Shown here piece by piece: positions 1 to 13,317 of a DNA stretch of 15,277 nt. The stretch lies in the UHGV virus genome UHGV-0113810; one strand, written 5' to 3'. The translations under genes and the position numbers were made by a program. Under the pieces are notes generated by a model that ran no database searches, was not told where the DNA came from, and saw nothing but the letters and a program-made list of their open reading frames with translations. The stretch is from a virus. Every line of letters begins with the position of its first letter. The stretch's first letter is position 1.

Positions 1-1361
1 AACGGCAGATACAGGAAGCACAGGAGCGAATCAGCGCACTTCAGGAAGAAATGGCAGAAACGCTGGGTGAGCAATATGACCCGGTACTGCCATCCCCCCT
101 GCGCCAGTCTTCAGCCCGTAAACCGTTACCGGCTTCACTTCCCCGTGAAACCCGGGTCATCCGGCCGGAAGAGGAATGCTGTCCGGCCTGTGGTGGTGAA
201 CTCAGTCCACTGGGATGTGATGTGTCAGAGCAACTGGAGCTTATCAGCAGTGCCTTTAAGGTTATCGAAACACAACGTCCGAAACAGGCCTGTTGCCGGT
301 GCGACCATATCGTGCAGGCACCAGTACCTTCAAAACCCATTGCACGCAGTTATGCCGGAGCGGGGCTTCTGGCCCATGTTGTCACCGGGAAATATGCAGA
401 CCATCTGCCGTTATACCGCCAGTCAGAAATATACCGTCGTCAGGGAGTGGAGCTGAGCCGTGCCACACTGGGGCGCTGGACAGGTGCTGTTGCTGAACTG
501 CTGGAGCCGCTGTATGACGTCCTGCGCCAGTATGTGCTGATGCCCGGTAAAGTCCATGCCGATGATATCCCCGTCCCGGTCCAGGAGCCGGGCAGTGGTA
601 AAACAAGGACTGCCCGGCTGTGGGTCTACGTCCGTGATGACCGTAACGCCGGTTCACAGATGCCTCCGGCGGTCTGGTTCGCGTACAGCCCGGACCGGAA
701 AGGCGTCCATCCACAGAATCATCTGGCCGGTTACAGCGGTGTGCTTCAGGCCGATGCTTACGGTGGTTACCGGGTGTTATACGAATCCGGCAGAATAACG
801 GAAGCCGCGTGTATGGCTCATGCCCGGAGAAAAATCCACGATGTGCATGCAAGAGTGCCCACCGACATCACCACGGAAGCCCTGCAGCGTATCGGTGAAC
901 TGTATGCCATAGAGGCAGAAGTCCGGGGATGTACAGCAGAACAGCGTCTGGCGGCAAGAAAAGCCAGAGCTGCGCCACTGATGCAGTCACTGTATGACTG
1001 GATACAGACTCAGATGAAAACACTGTCGCGTCACTCGGATACGGCAAAAGCGTTCGCATACCTGCTGAAACAGTGGGATGGCCTGAACGTGTACTGCAGT
1101 AATGGCTGGGTGGAAATCGACAACAACATCGCAGAGAACGCCTTACGGGGAGTGGCCGTAGGCCGGAAAAACTGGATGTTCGCGGGTTCCGACAGCGGTG
1201 GTGAACATGCGGCGGTGTTGTACTCGCTGATCGGCACATGCCGTCTGAACAATGTGGAGCCAGAAAAGTGGCTGCGTTACGTCATTGAACATATCCAGGA
1301 CTGGCCGGCAAACCGGGTACGCGATCTGTTGCCCTGGAAAGTTGATCTGACCTCTCGGTAA
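1..1361 (+). CDS. IS66-family transposase (TnpC-type), 5'-partial; reading frame is open to the window start
   Basis: 436-aa ORF from ATG at 51, with the frame open upstream to position 3 ([16 protein letters not shown]..., coiled-coil-like). The Cys-rich CPACGG...CCRCD zinc-finger region and the overall layout are what I recognise as IS66 TnpC. Identity is from memory, not a search. Confidence 0.85.
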
Positions 1362-1391
1362 ATATCAATACGGTTCTGGCGAGTCGCTTAC
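1..1391 (+). mobile_element. Right-hand portion of an IS66-family insertion sequence; right terminus at 1391
   Basis: The minus-strand reading across 1365-1391 is GTAAGCGACTCGCC..., matching the GTAAGCG-type terminus of IS66-family elements. The helicase reading frame changes to IS-derived sequence exactly at 1391/1392. The left end lies outside the window. Confidence 0.75.
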
Positions 1392-2030
1392 AAACAGAGA
1401 GCCTTTCACCAGACCTTTCGGTGACAGCATCCTGTCCAGCGATGGGATCCCTGTGCTCATTCCTCGTTGTTCGCCTGACGGGTCAAATCGCTTCTCAAGG
1501 TCGCTAACCCAGTCTTCCATGACCTCACCAAATGAGCGAAGGCCGCGACGCGATCCGGTTTTTGCATGGTCTGTCAGTTGCGTGAAAATAGCCTGAATAG
1601 CTTCGTACTTCTGCGTTGCAGTCATTCCGTTGCGGGAATAGAGCAATTCCGTCGCTTCAGTCATGCGGTTAATGGCGTAGCGTTCCATTGCGGTTTCACG
1701 AACCTGCATTGCATAGGCAACGATGTTTGCTGCGCTTGGCGTGTTCTTTGCGATCTCAGCGATATAAGCAAAACCGCCAACAGACGCCGTTAACGATTTA
1801 CGCTCCAGTTCATCGAAAAGCGTCAGGCCATCTACTGGCTTTTGCTCCCGGTGCATTCTGGTTATTTCTTCGAAAAGGATTTTGTGTGGTCGGCTGTAAA
1901 ATGAATCAGGCTTCAGCATCGCCAGAACTTTCTGGACGCGCTCACTGCTGTCATCATCCAGAAGCAATCCACCAATCACCGCCTGCTCTGCTTCGATGCT
2001 ATGGGGCGGCGCATAAAAATTATCGGTCAT
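1392..2030 (-). pseudogene. Phage DnaB-like replicative helicase, N-terminal fragment truncated by the IS66 insertion
   Basis: [25 protein letters not shown]...GGFAYIAEIAKNTPSAANIVAYA is a DnaB N-terminal domain. Phage-derived reading ends at ...GLVKGSLF, just before the expected Walker A, and continues into IS sequence (VSDSPEPY*). Start ATG at 2030 has a GAGGGTG RBS and overlaps the O-like stop. Confidence 0.75.
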
Positions 2031-2919
2031 CGTGTTCACCCTCACGAACTTTCAGGTAGGTATTATCGTTAAGCAGGTAATCAAATCCCTTTTTGTGCCA
2101 GACGGTTCCGCGCTGATGGTTTGGGCGCTCTTCGAACATCCATCGGCAATTTTCGCCAACGTAGCTCAAATAATTTCTCCAGTCCTGCATCGTGAACCCA
2201 TGCCCGTCAAGCTGGCGGGTTATCACTCCGGCTTTGCGCCAGAACGTTCGGATCTGGTTTTTACGCTTGTCATTCAGTGCGCGGATTCTTGGCGCTTCAG
2301 GAAGGATTTCGTGGTAAGCATCGACAACATCCTGACAGCTAACGGAAGGTTTTTTCTTGTCAGACTTTTTGTCTGCTGCGGTACTCTCTAATACGTCAGT
2401 ATTAGAGATAATATTATTATATTCTTTATCTGTGGTAATTTGCTGGTAATCTGCTGGTACAGTATTGCTTGCAGGCATTGGTATTGCTGGCTTTGAGGTG
2501 GTAATTTGCTGGTAATCTGCTGGTACAAAATTTGACTGATAATCGTCATATTTCTCTACCGAGAAAACTGAGAATTTACCGTGTGAAACCCAGTCAATCA
2601 TGCCGAGTTTTTTGAACTTTCTAAGCAGGTACTGAACGCGATCTGGTTTGAGTCCTGTTTCAAACGCCAGAGAGTTTCTACCGCCAAGTAGCTTCCCTCT
2701 GCCTACCAGAATTTCTCCTGCGTCAGTCATTACATACTCAGGCGTATGCTTTGCTTTGAGGATTAAGTGAACCCACAGATGCGCTGCTTCTGCGTCCTTG
2801 TAAAACGGCACATCCATAATTTTACGGTGCAGCAAGGCATACCCCTTACCGCTGCTTTGATGCGGTTGTTGTAGCCTTCTGGCCTCTCTGGCTTCGGCTA
2901 GATTAGATATGTTACTCAT
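2020..2919 (-). CDS. Phage replication initiation protein (O-like), carrying the origin repeats internally
   Basis: 299-aa ORF immediately downstream of cII and upstream of the helicase, which is the lambdoid O position. AGGAGAAAGG RBS before the ATG. Contains the in-frame repeat [10 protein letters not shown] encoded by the iteron DNA. Confidence 0.65.
2401..2528. repeat. ori-like iteron array with adjacent AT-rich tract (candidate phage replication origin inside the O-like gene)
   Basis: Perfect 30-bp direct repeat GTGGTAATTTGCTGGTAATCTGCTGGTACA at 2432-2461 and 2498-2527, each built of TGCTGGTA sub-repeats, with degenerate copies between (tattgcttgc, tattgctggc). An AT-rich tract at 2401-2430 follows in the gene's reading direction, the same order as lambda ori. 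Confidence 0.6.
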
Positions 2920-3058
2920 GACCTTTCTCCTTCTGCATCAGCTTCACTTTTTCCAACTCAGCCCGGAATCGACCAGGCTGCTTGAAGCTGGACAGGAAGC
3001 GATCACGTAGTATGTGTTTGTGAATTTTGTCCTGGTAAGGACTGAGTTGTTTTGTCAT
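2912..3058 (-). CDS. Small hypothetical protein (48 aa) between cII and the O-like gene
   Basis: ATG at 3058 preceded by AGGAGTAATT; the stop TAA overlaps the O-like start (ATGAGTAA). Translation: [48 protein letters not shown]. Not in the supplied ORF track because it is short. Confidence 0.4.
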
Positions 3059-3147: not shown

Positions 3148-3390
3148 ATTGGTGAGTCCATCAAGCGCATACTTAAAAGCCCTGCTAATCGGACTGATGT
3201 CTGATGCCATTCCGAAAGCACACAAGACCGAAGCAATAAATCTCCAGTCCGTTCTGCTTATCTTCGATTCATGACAGCCAATCATCTTTGCCAGACCGCG
3301 CTGTGTAAGCGTTGACAGGTTGATGAGTAAATCTGTTTCTGCGCGATCAACGTCGCGCTGTGTTGGCTTGCTGTAACTTGCTTGTGTCAT
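3091..3390 (-). CDS. cII: Transcriptional activator CII (lambda-type C-terminus, divergent N-terminus)
   Basis: C-terminus [21 protein letters not shown] matches lambda CII (..[20 protein letters not shown]). Position between cro and O, TTGC-N6-TTGC site at its start, and oop antisense at its 3' end all fit. Confidence 0.85.
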
Positions 3391-4615: not shown

Positions 4616-5518
4616 ATGAGCCAAAATCTTGATTCAACACTAGAAACATACATTTCTTGGCAGTTAGAGCAATTTAAAAATAACTTTTTCCCAAGCTGCG
4701 ACGTCATAGCGTACTACGGTGGTATCTTTCCATGGTCAAAAGAAGTTTACCAACCAAAACTTGAGGCTATTGGGGAGATGGCTAACAGTCGTACCAATAG
4801 ATTTCTAGTTATTATACTCAATACAAATGGTGGCTCTGTTGAGTCTGTGGAAAAAATGGTAGAAATTACAAGGCATTTCTATCAAGAGGTATATTTTATC
4901 ATTCCAGATATGGCCATGTCGGCAGGCACAATATGGTGTATGTCTGGAGATAAAATTTACATGAACTATGCTTCTTCATTAGGCCCCATTGACCCTCAAG
5001 TGCAATCCTCTGACGGTAAATGGGTTCCTGCTTTGGGATACCTTGATAAAGTTGAAGAAATGATTACTAAATCCAGAGAAGGAACCATTACCCAAGCTGA
5101 ACTAATGATGCTTAGTCAGTTAGATCTTGCGCACTTAAGGAGATACGAGCAAGCCAGAGAGCTATCAATAGACTTGCTTAAGAAGTGGCTTGTAGAGTAT
5201 AAATTCAGAGAGTGGACGGTTCATCAAGGTAACACAAAACGAGGAAAGCTAGTTTCCAAGAGGGAAAAAGAAGCAAGAGCTAAAATGATCGCTACCGCTC
5301 TTAGTGACAACGGAAAGTGGCATTCTCACGGAAGAACGATAGGAATAAATACTCTTATCAATGACTTAAGAATTAAAGTAGAAGACTTTACATACGACAA
5401 AGATTTTAGCATGGCGTTAAAAAATCTGCACAACGTCATTAATGAATACATGTATAAGACAAATCGACAGGTTCTTGTTCTGTCTTCATTCCCCTTCTCA
5501 GAACAAAGTGAGTCATAA
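4616..5518 (+). CDS. ClpP/crotonase-fold serine-protease-like protein (SDH / S49-like family), at the position occupied by rexA-rexB in lambda
   Basis: 300-aa ORF on the cI strand between cI and OL/PL. Motifs LVIILNTNGGSVESV and PDMAMSAGTIWCMSGDKIY resemble the oxyanion and nucleophile-serine segments of ClpP/SppA-fold proteases. The region is clearly AT-rich compared with cI. Family assignment is from motif recognition only. Confidence 0.6.
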   Translation: MSQNLDSTLETYISWQLEQFKNNFFPSCDVIAYYGGIFPWSKEVYQPKLEAIGEMANSRTNRFLVIILNTNGGSVESVEKMVEITRHFYQEVYFIIPDMAMSAGTIWCMSGDKIYMNYASSLGPIDPQVQSSDGKWVPALGYLDKVEEMITKSREGTITQAELMMLSQLDLAHLRRYEQARELSIDLLKKWLVEYKFREWTVHQGNTKRGKLVSKREKEARAKMIATALSDNGKWHSHGRTIGINTLINDLRIKVEDFTYDKDFSMALKNLHNVINEYMYKTNRQVLVLSSFPFSEQSES

Positions 5519-5689
5519 ATGAGCAAAGACAAATCACTGACACAGCAAGTGGCAGAAATACTTAGCAAGCAAAAAGTTAGCGAGCAAGGTAAAATGATTC
5601 AATCATTAAAGAACAAAGGATTGATCAACAAGCCTGTTTTTACTTTGGCTTATGGACCTGATACTACAGTCTGCCAAATGCACCAATAA
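5519..5689 (+). CDS. Small hypothetical protein (56 aa), translationally coupled to the protease-like gene
   Basis: ATG at 5519 immediately follows the upstream stop (TAAATG). Translation: MSKDKSLTQQVAEILSKQKVSEQGKMIQSLKNKGLINKPVFTLAYGPDTTVCQMHQ. Followed within 10 bp by an intrinsic terminator. Confidence 0.45.
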   Translation: MSKDKSLTQQVAEILSKQKVSEQGKMIQSLKNKGLINKPVFTLAYGPDTTVCQMHQ

Positions 5690-7531: not shown

Positions 7532-7677
7532 CCAAATATCGAAGCGGCAAACAAAAATCGCTGGGGTTTGACGATTGGTGTAACTGGATAGATAGATACG
7601 GAACTTGGTGGGATAAATAACAGGTAACTTAAGCGTATTTACTTTCGCAGCAAACCACTTATTTGAGAGGAATTAAT

Positions 7678-8301
7678 ATGTCATCAATCCGCTTAACTAC
7701 GAGAATGAAAGAGAAAATCGCTCGTAACGCTTTAATTAAGTCTGGGGTTTTCACTGAACTTGAAGAAGTAACAAAGTTAAAGAACCAGCTTGCACTTGAC
7801 GCCAGAGTTATTGCGTTTGGCGGTAAAAAGAAAACTGAGGAAGTGGATCAGTTATCATCCAGGTTAGTAGCTATAAGTGAAGAACTTGAAAAGATGGGAT
7901 GTTCATTTTACTCATACGATGTTCGTTCTACTTCAATTTATCTGACTGTATCTGGCAGAAGGGTTGGATGGCATTCATATGGGAAAGACGGCAACGGCGA
8001 AGATATATTGCTCCCTACTCCAACCAAAGATAAATGCATGTTTGATGCAGAACACGAAATAACAAAAAGGTTTGATGAAATCTGCGCATTGCAACAAAAA
8101 CTTGAAGCCAAGAAAAAGGATATCGAATCAAATGTATGGGCTGCTTTGAACTCAGTCACAACAGTTAAGCGACTTATTGAAGTTTGGCCTGAAAGCAAAG
8201 AATTGCTACCAAAAGAAGCAGACAAAGCAAGTACAGCACTTCCTGCTTTACGGGTAGAAGATTTGAATAAGATGATTGGACTTCCTTCCGAGTCCGCATA
8301 G
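7678..8301 (+). CDS. Hypothetical protein, 207 aa (AT-rich accessory gene in the PL operon)
   Basis: ATG at 7678 with a GAGAGG RBS. Low GC relative to neighbours. No motif I can assign with confidence. Confidence 0.55.
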   Translation: MSSIRLTTRMKEKIARNALIKSGVFTELEEVTKLKNQLALDARVIAFGGKKKTEEVDQLSSRLVAISEELEKMGCSFYSYDVRSTSIYLTVSGRRVGWHSYGKDGNGEDILLPTPTKDKCMFDAEHEITKRFDEICALQQKLEAKKKDIESNVWAALNSVTTVKRLIEVWPESKELLPKEADKASTALPALRVEDLNKMIGLPSESA

Positions 8302-12160: not shown

Positions 12161-12698
12161 CTATCAGGCACTGCGTGAAAAGGCAGAGAAAGCAACGTGT
12201 GGTGTGTGGTCGCTCGAATATGGAGAGGGCCGATTTGATGGTGATGATGCGCTAATTCATCGTGAAGTTGCTGGATATATTCCCATTTGCAGAATTGAAG
12301 GAGCGCATCCTGAAAGCGGTTTCGATGAAGATTTCCAAACTGAACAGCAGGCCAATGCTGAATTCATCGCCGCAGCCAATCCGGCTACCGTCTTGGCGCT
12401 GCTGGATGAACGGGAAAGAAACCAGCAATACATCAAATCCCGCGACCAGGAGAACGAGGATATTGCGCTAACGGTAGGGAAGTTGCGCGTTGAGCTTGAG
12501 GCAGAAAAACAGCGGGCAAAGGATCTGTTTATGGAAAATGCTCGGCTTAAGTCAGGTATAGCCGGTCTGATACACCTCGGTATTCGATATGCAGATGTTG
12601 AGGTCATGAGAATTGCTGGAGATGCCCAGCTTTCTACCCCATGCACTGACAGCATCATAAACAGCATTGCAACAGGCATTCGCATCAAAGGAGAGTGA
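12147..12698 (+). CDS. Ea22-like family protein, 183 aa
   Basis: ALREKAEKATCGVW and FIAAANPATVLALLDERE motifs are typical of ead/Ea22-like proteins; size and position next to xis parallel lambda ea22. Confidence 0.6.
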   Translation: MSKIDYQALREKAEKATCGVWSLEYGEGRFDGDDALIHREVAGYIPICRIEGAHPESGFDEDFQTEQQANAEFIAAANPATVLALLDERERNQQYIKSRDQENEDIALTVGKLRVELEAEKQRAKDLFMENARLKSGIAGLIHLGIRYADVEVMRIAGDAQLSTPCTDSIINSIATGIRIKGE

Positions 12699-12699
12699 T

Positions 12700-13317
12700 A
12701 TGAGCGCTATAACCAAAGAACGTATCAAATTATTCATTAAAAATCCGCTTGATAACGGACTTACTCGTGGCGAACAAATGGAACTGGCACGAATTGCACT
12801 GGCATCACTGGAACGCGAACAGATTCGCCACGAGCATGCCAAATGGTCTGACTCCACATTTGGCTGCGTTGGCCCCATTGGTCCGCTGAAACATCTCTCA
12901 AAAGAGGCACTGGAAGCCGCAGCCGAACCAGACGATCTTAGCGAGTGGGCTGATATGCAGTTTCTGTTGTGGGATGCACAGCGCCGTGCTGGCATCAGCG
13001 ATGCTGAAATTACCGCTGCTATGGAAGATAAATTGAAGATCAACATGGAGCGCCAGTGGCCTGAGCCAAAAGATGGTGAGCCTCGCTTGCACATTAAAGA
13101 ACCCGGCAACTATCCGGTAACTCCGGATGGTTGGATAAGCTGTAGTGAGCGAATGCCCCCTCAAGATGATTGGATTTTAATTTATTCAAAGCACGGCGAG
13201 TATATGGCAGGACAGGTACAAGGGGAATACGTGGAGTTGAGCGACGGCACTTTATCGTGGTTAGGGAACGCCTTGTTCTGGATGCCGCTACCAGAACCGC
13301 CGCAGGAGGTGAAGTAA
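12700..13317 (+). CDS. DUF550/DUF551-like phage protein (dATP/dGTP pyrophosphohydrolase-like N-terminus), 205 aa
   Basis: GGAGAG RBS. C-terminal WISCSERMPP...WMPLPEPP resembles DUF551; N-terminal part resembles the DUF550 region. Recalled from annotation patterns, low certainty. Confidence 0.45.
   Translation: MSAITKERIKLFIKNPLDNGLTRGEQMELARIALASLEREQIRHEHAKWSDSTFGCVGPIGPLKHLSKEALEAAAEPDDLSEWADMQFLLWDAQRRAGISDAEITAAMEDKLKINMERQWPEPKDGEPRLHIKEPGNYPVTPDGWISCSERMPPQDDWILIYSKHGEYMAGQVQGEYVELSDGTLSWLGNALFWMPLPEPPQEVK

What the first reader, a model, noticed from the sequence alone, without database searches (positions are those of the whole stretch)
1362..2045. IS66-family insertion splits the phage DnaB-like helicase gene just before its ATPase domain
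The helicase reading frame runs from 2030 down to 1392 (...GMSTGIPSLDRMLSPKGLVKGSLF) and then continues into sequence beginning GTAAGCG, the IS66-type terminus, stopping after 8 IS-derived codons. The break is just upstream of where the Walker A motif is expected, so the encoded protein would have only the N-terminal domain. With ori and the O-like gene intact but the helicase broken, the prophage is probably replication-defective while keeping immunity, the rex-position module and int/xis.
Basis: partly seen in the sequence, partly recalled or inferred. Interest (0 to 1): 0.55.

Follow-up and report, generated by a model that had tools for sequence, protein, structure and literature searches.

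The report
IS66-family element truncates prophage helicase gene
A common E. coli jumping gene (an ISCro1-like IS66-family insertion sequence) sits inside the replicative helicase gene of a lambda-like prophage and cuts it off two residues before its ATP-binding loop; this is a real but ordinary way for prophages to become defective.

Summary
Window 1-1391 is the right-hand 1391 nt of an IS66-family element. It is 99.2% identical to a complete 2699-bp copy with an 8-bp target duplication, and 97.3% identical to a copy that PGAP labels ISCro1 family. It ends exactly at ...GAGTCGCTTAC (1391).

From 1392 the sequence is 100% identical to an intact lambdoid replication module. The helicase ORF (2030 down to 1392) keeps residues 1-213 of a 478-aa phage DnaB-family helicase. 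That protein is identical to the P protein of viable phage mEpX2. The ORF then reads 8 IS-encoded codons (VSDSPEPY) and stops. The Walker A loop (GARPKMGKT, residues 216-224) and the rest of the ATPase domain are missing.

The same junction occurs in three independent assemblies, so it is not an assembly artefact. All contigs stop inside the IS, and window position 1 is a contig end. The left IS end, the target duplication and the helicase C-terminal half therefore could not be found. Simple insertion is favoured, but an IS-bounded deletion or rearrangement remains open.

A replication defect is a sound inference, not a tested result. IS66-family disruption of an essential lambdoid prophage gene is already documented (ISEc8 in nu1 of Sakai Sp4). 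Low interest.

The parts
1..1361 (+). 3' part of the IS66-family transposase gene tnpC. It encodes the C-terminal 452 of about 523 aa in frame 3..1361, with the stop at 1359-1361. It is cut by the contig end at position 1.
   Evidence: Pfam DDE_Tnp_IS66 1e-102, zf-IS66 and DDE_Tnp_IS66_C. NCBIfam NF033517, 476 bits. 99.3% aa identity to TnpC of the complete copy L002 and 97.6% to a PGAP 'ISCro1 family' TnpC. The window equals the end of contig ERZ1742477 NODE_1.
1362..1391 (+). Right end of the IS, including the terminal inverted repeat. On the minus strand it reads GTAAGCGACTCGCCAGAACCG... The last IS base is 1391.
   Evidence: The alignment to complete copies ends at this base. The reference copies L002:1693-4391 and L008:655-3352 end ...GCTTAC directly before their 8-bp duplications. 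The IR matches the left end GTAACCGGCTCATTTAAACCGT at 16 of 22 positions.
1392..1399 (.). AAACAGAG: the predicted right-hand copy of the 8-bp target-site duplication. A prediction only, because the left copy lies outside the available sequence.
   Evidence: Close relatives of this IS make 8-bp duplications: TTCAAAGG in L002 and AAAAAGAG in L008. The intact target reads ...CCAATGAC AAACAGAG AGCC....
1365..2030 (-). Truncated phage DnaB-family helicase ORF of 221 codons plus stop. Residues 1-213 are authentic (1392..2030). Then come 8 IS-encoded codons, VSDSPEPY (1368..1391), and stop TGA (1365-1367). It lacks Walker A and the whole RecA-like ATPase core.
   Evidence: translation. Pfam DnaB N-terminal domain at 8-112 only; the intact homologue is 478 aa, hits TIGR03600 phage_DnaB at 584 bits, has DnaB_C at 190-445 and Walker A at 216-224; alignment to E. 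coli DnaB structures.
2020..2919 (-). Intact O-like replication initiator gene (299 aa). Its stop overlaps the helicase start. It contains the presumed origin: a 30-nt direct repeat at 2432-2461 and 2498-2527 with 11-nt sub-repeats, next to an AT-rich stretch at about 2396-2430.
   Evidence: Positions 1390-3000 are 100% identical to prophage MEI008 and 99.3% identical to the region that includes Sakai Sp5 'replication protein O'. There is no Pfam or NCBIfam hit, so the name rests on annotation and position.

Best explanation
An ISCro1-like IS66-family insertion sequence (about 2.7 kb, tnpA-tnpB-tnpC) transposed into the replicative helicase gene of a lambda-immunity, lambda-int lambdoid prophage. 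The gene is of the HK022 'P' type, called gp12 in P22-like phages.

The right IS end abuts codon 213/214. The gene now encodes a 221-aa stub: the DnaB N-terminal domain, the linker, the first 24 residues of the C-terminal domain and 8 IS-encoded residues. The stub has no P-loop and no ATPase or translocation core, so it cannot act as a helicase.

Phages of this replication type bring their own DnaB-family helicase instead of a lambda-P-type or DnaC-type loader. After induction, the intact O-like initiator should therefore bind the origin but no fork should be established. The prophage should still repress (cI), excise (int/xis) and express its lysogenic cargo, yet fail to amplify its DNA unless a co-resident phage supplies the helicase.

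Shown: the identity and exact end of the IS, the truncation point, the loss of Walker A, the intact neighbouring genes, and the presence of the junction in several assemblies.

Inferred: simple insertion with an 8-bp duplication (about 0.65), the replication defect (about 0.85 given the truncation), and the presence of the rest of the prophage.
For: - IS identity and terminus.
- Complete relatives have tnpA/tnpB/tnpC, imperfect terminal repeats and 8-bp duplications. This agrees with the 8-bp duplications, 2.7-2.8 kb length and multi-ORF structure reported for functional IS66-family elements (PMC3281130).
- Truncation point and missing Walker A.
- The intact allele is a phage DnaB-family helicase (TIGR03600 above cutoff). 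It is 100% identical to the P protein of viable phage mEpX2 and 99.6% identical to that of HK629. It is the type carried by inducible Sakai Sp5 (PMC2669165).
- The junction is identical in ERZ1742477, ERZ1742438 and OMAZ01000001.1, and the truncated product is on 9-12 contigs.
- Precedent: ISEc8 (an IS66-family element, from my own knowledge) disrupts nu1 of Sakai prophage Sp4 (PMC2669165).
Against: - The left IS end, the second copy of AAACAGAG and the helicase C-terminal half were not found. Every contig stops inside the IS.
- The product predicted for a simple insertion is MSRLPLFVIGARPKMGKTT.... Neither it, built with five known C-terminal alleles, nor the MGKTT... start is in the 15-billion-protein collection, although the N-terminal stub is.
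- The predicted left-junction DNA is absent from GTDB representative genomes, IMG/VR and 5426 complete E. coli genomes. This is weak negative evidence, because the protein look-ups need exact sequence matches.
- No functional data exist. Rescue by another prophage's helicase cannot be excluded.
Confidence: 0.8

Rival explanations
1. IS-bounded deletion or rearrangement. The IS end marks where an adjacent deletion, or recombination between two IS copies, removed or relocated the helicase C-terminal half and possibly the nin, Q, lysis and structural genes. What remains would be a prophage remnant (int to helicase N-terminus) rather than a whole prophage with one insertion.
For: - The products predicted for a simple insertion are absent from the protein collection, while the N-terminal stub is present on 9-12 contigs.
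- The predicted left-junction DNA is absent from all DNA collections searched.
- Genomes carrying this IS hold many copies, up to 34 places per genome, which favours IS-IS recombination.
Against: - The negative look-ups require exact 272-aa matches and a guessed start codon, so they are weak.
- The lineage carrying the right junction is itself absent from the complete-genome and GTDB sets, so absence of the left junction there says nothing.
- Simple insertion with an 8-bp duplication is what both sequenced relatives of this IS show.
Confidence: 0.3
2. Assembly artefact: a chimeric join between an IS copy located elsewhere and an intact prophage.
For: The window is a contig end lying in a repeated element. 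Short-read assemblers are unreliable at repeats.
Against: - The identical junction appears in three separate assemblies. Two of them end only 54 nt into the IS, as expected for a true repeat boundary.
- The join falls at the exact terminal nucleotide of the IS, which a random mis-join would not produce.
Confidence: 0.02
3. The truncated product is retained because it is useful. One version: the N-terminal domain plus linker poisons hexamers of the same helicase from superinfecting phages. Another: together with an IS-initiated C-terminal fragment it forms a split helicase.
For: - The stub ORF stays open and translationally coupled to O.
- The IS left end would supply TAA-ATG in frame with the C-terminal half.
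- The same gene carries an independent IS3-family insertion 14 codons away in other strains.
Against: - The gene lies in the pR operon, which cI represses in a lysogen.
- No promoter-like site occurs in 1200-2200.
- The insertion looks recent: the flanks are 100% identical to intact phages.
- The predicted C-terminal fusion was not found.
- Nothing indicates selection.
Confidence: 0.04

Closest known systems
ISCro1 (IS66 family; first described in Citrobacter rodentium ICC168, common in E. coli)
   Same: - 97.3% nt identity over 1391 nt and 97.6% TnpC aa identity to a copy that PGAP labels 'IS66-like element ISCro1 family'.
- Same termini.
- The relatives are 2698-2699 bp with tnpA-tnpB-tnpC and 8-bp duplications.
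- ISCro1 is the most expanded IS in C. rodentium, with 24 copies, many of them on mobile elements (PMC3072379).
   Different: - Only the right 1391 nt are in the window.
- The closest copies (99.2%) are in ETEC plasmids and chromosomes and carry only the generic IS66 label.
- No ISfinder reference sequence was available for direct comparison.
ISEc8 insertion in nu1 of E. coli O157 Sakai prophage Sp4
   Same: ISEc8, which I know from my own knowledge to be an IS66-family element, disrupts an essential gene of a lambdoid prophage and helps make it defective (PMC2669165).
   Different: The IS species is different. The target there is the terminase small subunit (a packaging gene), not the replicative helicase.
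Phage DnaB-family replicative helicase: HK022 P, Sakai Sp5 ECs_1190, mEpX2 P, gp12 of P22-like phages ST160 and SE1
   Same: - Residues 1-213 are identical to the mEpX2 and MEI008 protein.
- Same position after the O-like initiator, with overlapping stop and start codons.
   Different: The window's allele lacks residues 214-478 (Walker A, Walker B, DNA-binding loops), so it is a pseudogene of this family.
Independent IS3-family (IS629-like) insertion in the same helicase gene in other E. coli assemblies
   Same: The same gene is interrupted in its P-loop region, after Y227, 14 codons downstream of the site here. There both halves and the downstream nin-Q-lysis genes are retained (L013).
   Different: The IS family is different (IS3, end TGAACCGCCCCGGG). 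The prophage is different (P22-type Cro). Both junctions are sequenced there.

Membership tests
IS66 family insertion sequence | DDE transposase of the IS66 type (TnpC) | tested here: met
   Pfam PF03050 at 1e-102, with PF13005 and PF13817. NCBIfam NF033517 at 476 bits against a cutoff of 180. The N-terminal ~72 aa lie outside the window.
IS66 family insertion sequence | Accessory genes tnpA and tnpB upstream of tnpC | not testable with these tools
   They lie beyond the contig end. They are present in the 99.2% identical copy L002 and in L008.
IS66 family insertion sequence | Imperfect terminal inverted repeats beginning GTAAGCG or a close variant | tested here: met
   The right end reads GTAAGCGACTCGCCAGAACCG. 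The left end could only be seen in relatives: GTAACCGGCTCATTTAAACCGT, matching at 16 of 22 positions. That GTAAGCG is the family's consensus terminus is my own knowledge, not tested against ISfinder.
IS66 family insertion sequence | 8-bp target-site duplication | not testable with these tools
   Only one flank (AAACAGAG, 1392-1399) is available. Relatives show TTCAAAGG and AAAAAGAG. 8-bp duplications are reported for functional IS66-family elements in PMC3281130. Searches for the second copy failed.
ISCro1 (isoform) | At least ~90% nt or ~95% aa identity to the reference element (ISfinder convention, from my own knowledge) | tested here: inconclusive
   97.3% nt and 97.6% aa identity to a copy that PGAP labels ISCro1 family. 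The ISfinder reference itself was not available.
Phage DnaB-family replicative helicase (TIGR03600) | DnaB N-terminal domain | tested here: met
   PF00772 at 8e-32, residues 8-112 of the window ORF.
Phage DnaB-family replicative helicase (TIGR03600) | RecA-like C-terminal ATPase domain with Walker A (GxxxxGKT) | tested here: not met
   The window ORF has no DnaB_C hit. The intact homologue has DnaB_C at 190-445 and GARPKMGKT at 216-224. The window's gene is therefore a truncated pseudogene of this family, not a functional member.
Lambda-like O initiator with internal origin | Initiator gene containing iterons next to an AT-rich region, placed directly upstream of the helicase or loader gene | tested here: inconclusive
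   The position, the direct repeats at 2432-2461 and 2498-2527, and the AT-rich stretch are present. It lies in the 1390-3000 stretch that is 99.3% identical to Sakai Sp5, where the gene is annotated 'replication protein O'. No Pfam or NCBIfam model matches, and no origin function was tested.

The most novel reading that the evidence does not exclude
The P-loop region of this prophage helicase may be a recurrent target of independent IS insertions. The evidence is an IS66-family insertion after F213 here and an IS3-family insertion after Y227 in other strains. The protein collection also holds two clusters made largely of partial or truncated helicase products, with 348 and 414 member sequences. 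This pattern could reflect selection on lysogens to disable prophage replication while keeping immunity and cargo. The 221-aa N-terminal stub, or an IS-initiated C-terminal fragment, might even retain an exclusion or split-helicase function.
Probability: 0.07. Interest if true: 0.4.

Novelty: already known. Interest (0 to 1): 0.1.

Why it matters
Its value is mainly for annotation. The gene at 1365-2030 should be called a helicase pseudogene disrupted by an IS66-family (ISCro1-like) element. The prophage should be scored as probably replication-defective when its inducibility or gene-transfer potential is predicted. It adds one example to the well-documented decay of lambdoid prophages by IS insertion. 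It opens no new question by itself.

Tried and rejected
**1. Looking beyond the left edge.** This is impossible. The window is the terminal 15,277 nt of contig ERZ1742477 NODE_1. The other assemblies with the junction (OMAZ01000001.1, ERZ1742438) end 54 nt into the IS.

**2. The right junction in other collections.**
- Absent from 5426 complete E. coli genomes.
- Absent from GTDB species representatives, IMG/VR and GenBank phage records.

**3. The predicted left junction.**
- The DNA GCGCCAATGACAAACAGAG+GTAA is absent from GTDB representatives and IMG/VR.
- A 300-nt synthetic junction is absent from complete E. coli genomes.

**4. The predicted left-junction protein.**
- MSRLPLFVIG... was built with five C-terminal alleles (MEI008/Sakai, ECONIH4, HK629, ST160, P0039-like). 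Internal starts (MGKTT, MAINCAV, the GTG start at V243 translated as M, MFSLEMP, MPGDQ) were also tried.
- None of the IS-specific sequences is in the collection.
- The two internal-start fragments that do exist gave no support. The one followed up, P0136 (MFSLEMP...), traces to a different insertion of an IS3-family element. P0137 (MPGDQ...) was not followed up.

**5. Homology search with the predicted fusion.** No cluster representative carries the IS-derived N-terminus. Cluster members cannot be listed exhaustively.

**6. Defence-system check of the rex-position genes.** PADLOC gave no hits.

**7. Outward promoter at the IS end or inside the stub.** None was found in 1200-2200.

**Rejected:** assembly artefact. 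The junction recurs in independent assemblies and falls at the exact IS terminus.

Full report
**What is in the sequence.** The window opens inside a plus-strand ORF (3..1361). This ORF is the C-terminal 452 aa of an IS66-family transposase, TnpC. It hits Pfam DDE_Tnp_IS66 (1e-102), zf-IS66 and DDE_Tnp_IS66_C, and NCBIfam NF033517 at 476 bits against a cutoff of 180.

On the minus strand, an ORF from 2030 down to 1365 starts MTDNFY and carries only a DnaB N-terminal domain (PF00772, residues 8-112). Its translation ends ...GMSTGIPSLDRMLSPKGLVKGSLF-VSDSPEPY-stop.

**Where the IS ends.**
- Megablast against 5426 complete E. coli genomes splits the first 3 kb of the window into two unrelated matches. 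Positions 1-1391 match IS66-family copies, and 1390-3000 match lambdoid prophages. No genome contains both joined.
- A three-way alignment shows that the window follows an IS copy up to ...GAGTCGCTTAC (1391). It then follows an uninterrupted helicase gene from AAACAGAGAGCC... (1392) onward.
- The closest complete IS copy is plasmid NZ_LR883051.1 (L002:1693-4391). It is 2699 bp long with tnpA, tnpB and tnpC. Its imperfect terminal repeats (GTAACCGGCTC... and GTAAGCGACTC...) match at 16 of 22 positions. It has an 8-bp duplication, TTCAAAGG, and is 99.2% identical to the window's 1391 nt.
- A second copy, which PGAP names 'IS66-like element ISCro1 family' (L008:655-3352), is 97.3% identical at the nucleotide level and 97.6% for TnpC. 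It is flanked by AAAAAGAG.
- Both copies end ...GCTTAC immediately before their duplications. The IS end in the window is therefore base 1391, even though the intact phage sequence also has AC at that spot.
- The expected duplication is AAACAGAG (1392-1399).
- Length, three-gene layout and 8-bp duplications match what is reported for functional IS66-family elements (PMC3281130).

**What was hit.**
- The uninterrupted gene (L001:3205-4641) encodes 478 aa. It scores above the cutoff for TIGR03600, 'phage replicative helicase, DnaB family' (584 against 499 bits). Pfam finds the DnaB N-terminal domain at 8-112 and DnaB_C at 190-445.
- It aligns end to end with E. coli DnaB structures. GARPKMGKT (residues 216-224) lies on the DnaB P-loop ARPSMGKT.
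- The protein is 100% identical to 'P' of the viable phage mEpX2 and 99.6% identical to the HK629 helicase. The same protein is called gp12 in the P22-like phages ST160 and SE1.
- It is also the Sakai Sp5 elongation protein, which the literature describes as HK022-like and of the DnaB family (PMC2669165).
- The window keeps residues 1-213. The break therefore falls 2-3 residues before Walker A and 24 residues inside the Pfam C-terminal domain.
- Everything needed for ATP binding, hydrolysis and DNA translocation is absent from the ORF.

**Surroundings.**
- The O-like initiator gene (2020..2919) overlaps the helicase start, as in intact phages. The stretch 1390-3000 that contains it is 100% identical to prophage MEI008 and 99.3% identical to Sp5, where the gene is annotated O.
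- It carries a 30-nt direct repeat (2432-2461 and 2498-2527) with 11-nt sub-repeats beside an AT-rich stretch, the layout of a lambda-type origin.
- Further along are cII, cro and a cI of the lambda/HK97/mEp234 immunity type. A cargo pair then sits in the rex position, followed by N, RecT, Ea22-like genes, xis and a lambda-type int. All are full-length by Pfam.

**Is it real?** The exact 221-aa stub is recorded on 9-12 contigs from ENA and Logan. The junction DNA occurs in OMAZ01000001.1, which is 100% identical to the window over 13,940 nt. It also occurs in ERZ1742438. In those two assemblies the contig stops 54 nt into the IS, which is typical of a true repeat boundary. A mis-join would not land on the terminal base of the IS in three assemblies. 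The artefact explanation is rejected.

**What could not be settled.** The window is the very end of its contig, so the left IS end, the second copy of AAACAGAG and the helicase C-terminal half are out of reach.
- I reconstructed the reciprocal junction. The left IS end would place TAA-ATG in frame, giving MSRLPLFVIGARPKMGKTT....
- I searched for this product with five known C-terminal alleles and alternative starts. None of the IS-specific sequences exists in the 15-billion-protein collection.
- The junction DNA is absent from GTDB representatives, IMG/VR and complete E. coli genomes.
- Two C-terminal fragments with internal starts do exist. The one followed up, MFSLEMP... (P0136), comes from a different event. 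An IS3-family element with an IS629-like end is inserted after Y227 of the same gene in other strains, where both halves and the nin-Q-lysis genes are retained.
- The negative look-ups need exact matches, so they are weak. They still leave an IS-bounded deletion or rearrangement at roughly 0.3 against about 0.65 for simple insertion.

**Mechanism and consequence.** An IS66-family element transposed into the helicase gene or ended up at its edge. The resulting allele is null for helicase function.

Phages of this module type supply their own DnaB-family helicase instead of a lambda-P or DnaC-type loader (PMC2669165). Requirement of that helicase for phage replication is established knowledge for P22 gene 12; I did not retrieve a paper for it. 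The O-like initiator should therefore be unable to establish forks after induction.

Immunity, excision and lysogenic cargo are untouched in the window. The replication defect is inferred, not tested. A co-resident phage with the same helicase could complement it, as happens among the Sakai prophages (PMC2669165).

**Comparison and novelty.** The IS is a known, abundant enterobacterial element, and the helicase is a known phage protein. IS-mediated disruption of essential lambdoid prophage genes is well documented. One example is ISEc8, an IS66-family element by my own knowledge, in nu1 of Sakai Sp4 (PMC2669165). This particular insertion site is not in the complete-genome, GTDB or phage collections, but it is only a new allele of a known phenomenon.

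The only mildly unusual note is that two different IS families have hit the same gene 42 bp apart. If both had landed at random in a 1437-bp gene, a gap that small would have about a 6% chance. This was noticed after the fact and is no more than a lead.

**Verdict.** Interest is low, about 0.1.

Noticed in passing
L013:3958-6708 (GCA_014373845.1 contig DABQSB010000009.1); also L014-L019: The same helicase gene carries an independent IS3-family insertion (404-aa rve transposase, IS end TGAACCGCCCCGGG) right after Y227. That is 14 codons (42 bp) downstream of the IS66 site, still inside the P-loop region. The C-terminal fragment MFSLEMP... (P0136) is on 16-19 contigs.
   Followed up: partly
window 4616-5689: Between cI and N, where lambda has rexAB, HK97 has gp48/49 and mEp234/HK106 have hicAB, this prophage carries a 300-aa SDH-family Clp-fold serine protease (Pfam SDH_protease; NCBIfam NF047768 below its cutoff) and an abutting 56-aa ORF. 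PADLOC gives no hit. It may be an uncharacterised lysogen-expressed cargo or defence pair.
   Followed up: partly
window 2432-2527 versus L004: The O-like gene differs in repeat number between assemblies with the same IS junction. ERZ1742438 lacks one 66-bp unit, giving O of 277 aa instead of 299 aa. This is either real iteron copy-number variation or repeat collapse at 1.9x coverage.
   Followed up: partly
window 1392-1399; L008:647-654 and 3353-3360: The presumed target AAACAGAG resembles the duplication AAAAAGAG of the ISCro1-labelled copy in strain F5505-C1 (7 of 8 bases). The L002 copy has TTCAAAGG. This may hint at a weak target preference.
   Followed up: no
L002:1693-1711 (IS left end), hypothetical left junction: Read outward, the IS left end contains TAA-ATG. 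After insertion at this site, that ATG would be in frame with the helicase C-terminal half and predict a 272-aa product, MSRLPLFVIGARPKMGKTT.... The product was not found in any collection.
   Followed up: yes
P0087, P0039, P0021: Other truncated or chimeric versions of this helicase exist in public assemblies, and some are widespread. P0087 (280 aa, 390 contigs) joins unrelated N-terminal sequence to the helicase at ...QGDYDGDF. The P0039 cluster holds 414 member sequences, largely C-terminal fragments.
   Followed up: no
window 12667-13317 and 7663-8301: The early-left region encodes a dATP/dGTP pyrophosphohydrolase fused to DUF551 (216 aa) and an Nmad5-family putative nucleotide-modification protein (212 aa). 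These are accessory genes typical of lambdoid ea/nin-type mosaics.
   Followed up: no
window 1 versus L007 and L004 contig ends: In ERZ1742477 the contig runs 1391 nt into the IS before breaking. In OMAZ01 and ERZ1742438 it breaks after 54 nt. This suggests that the samples differ in IS66-family copy content or used different assembly settings.
   Followed up: no
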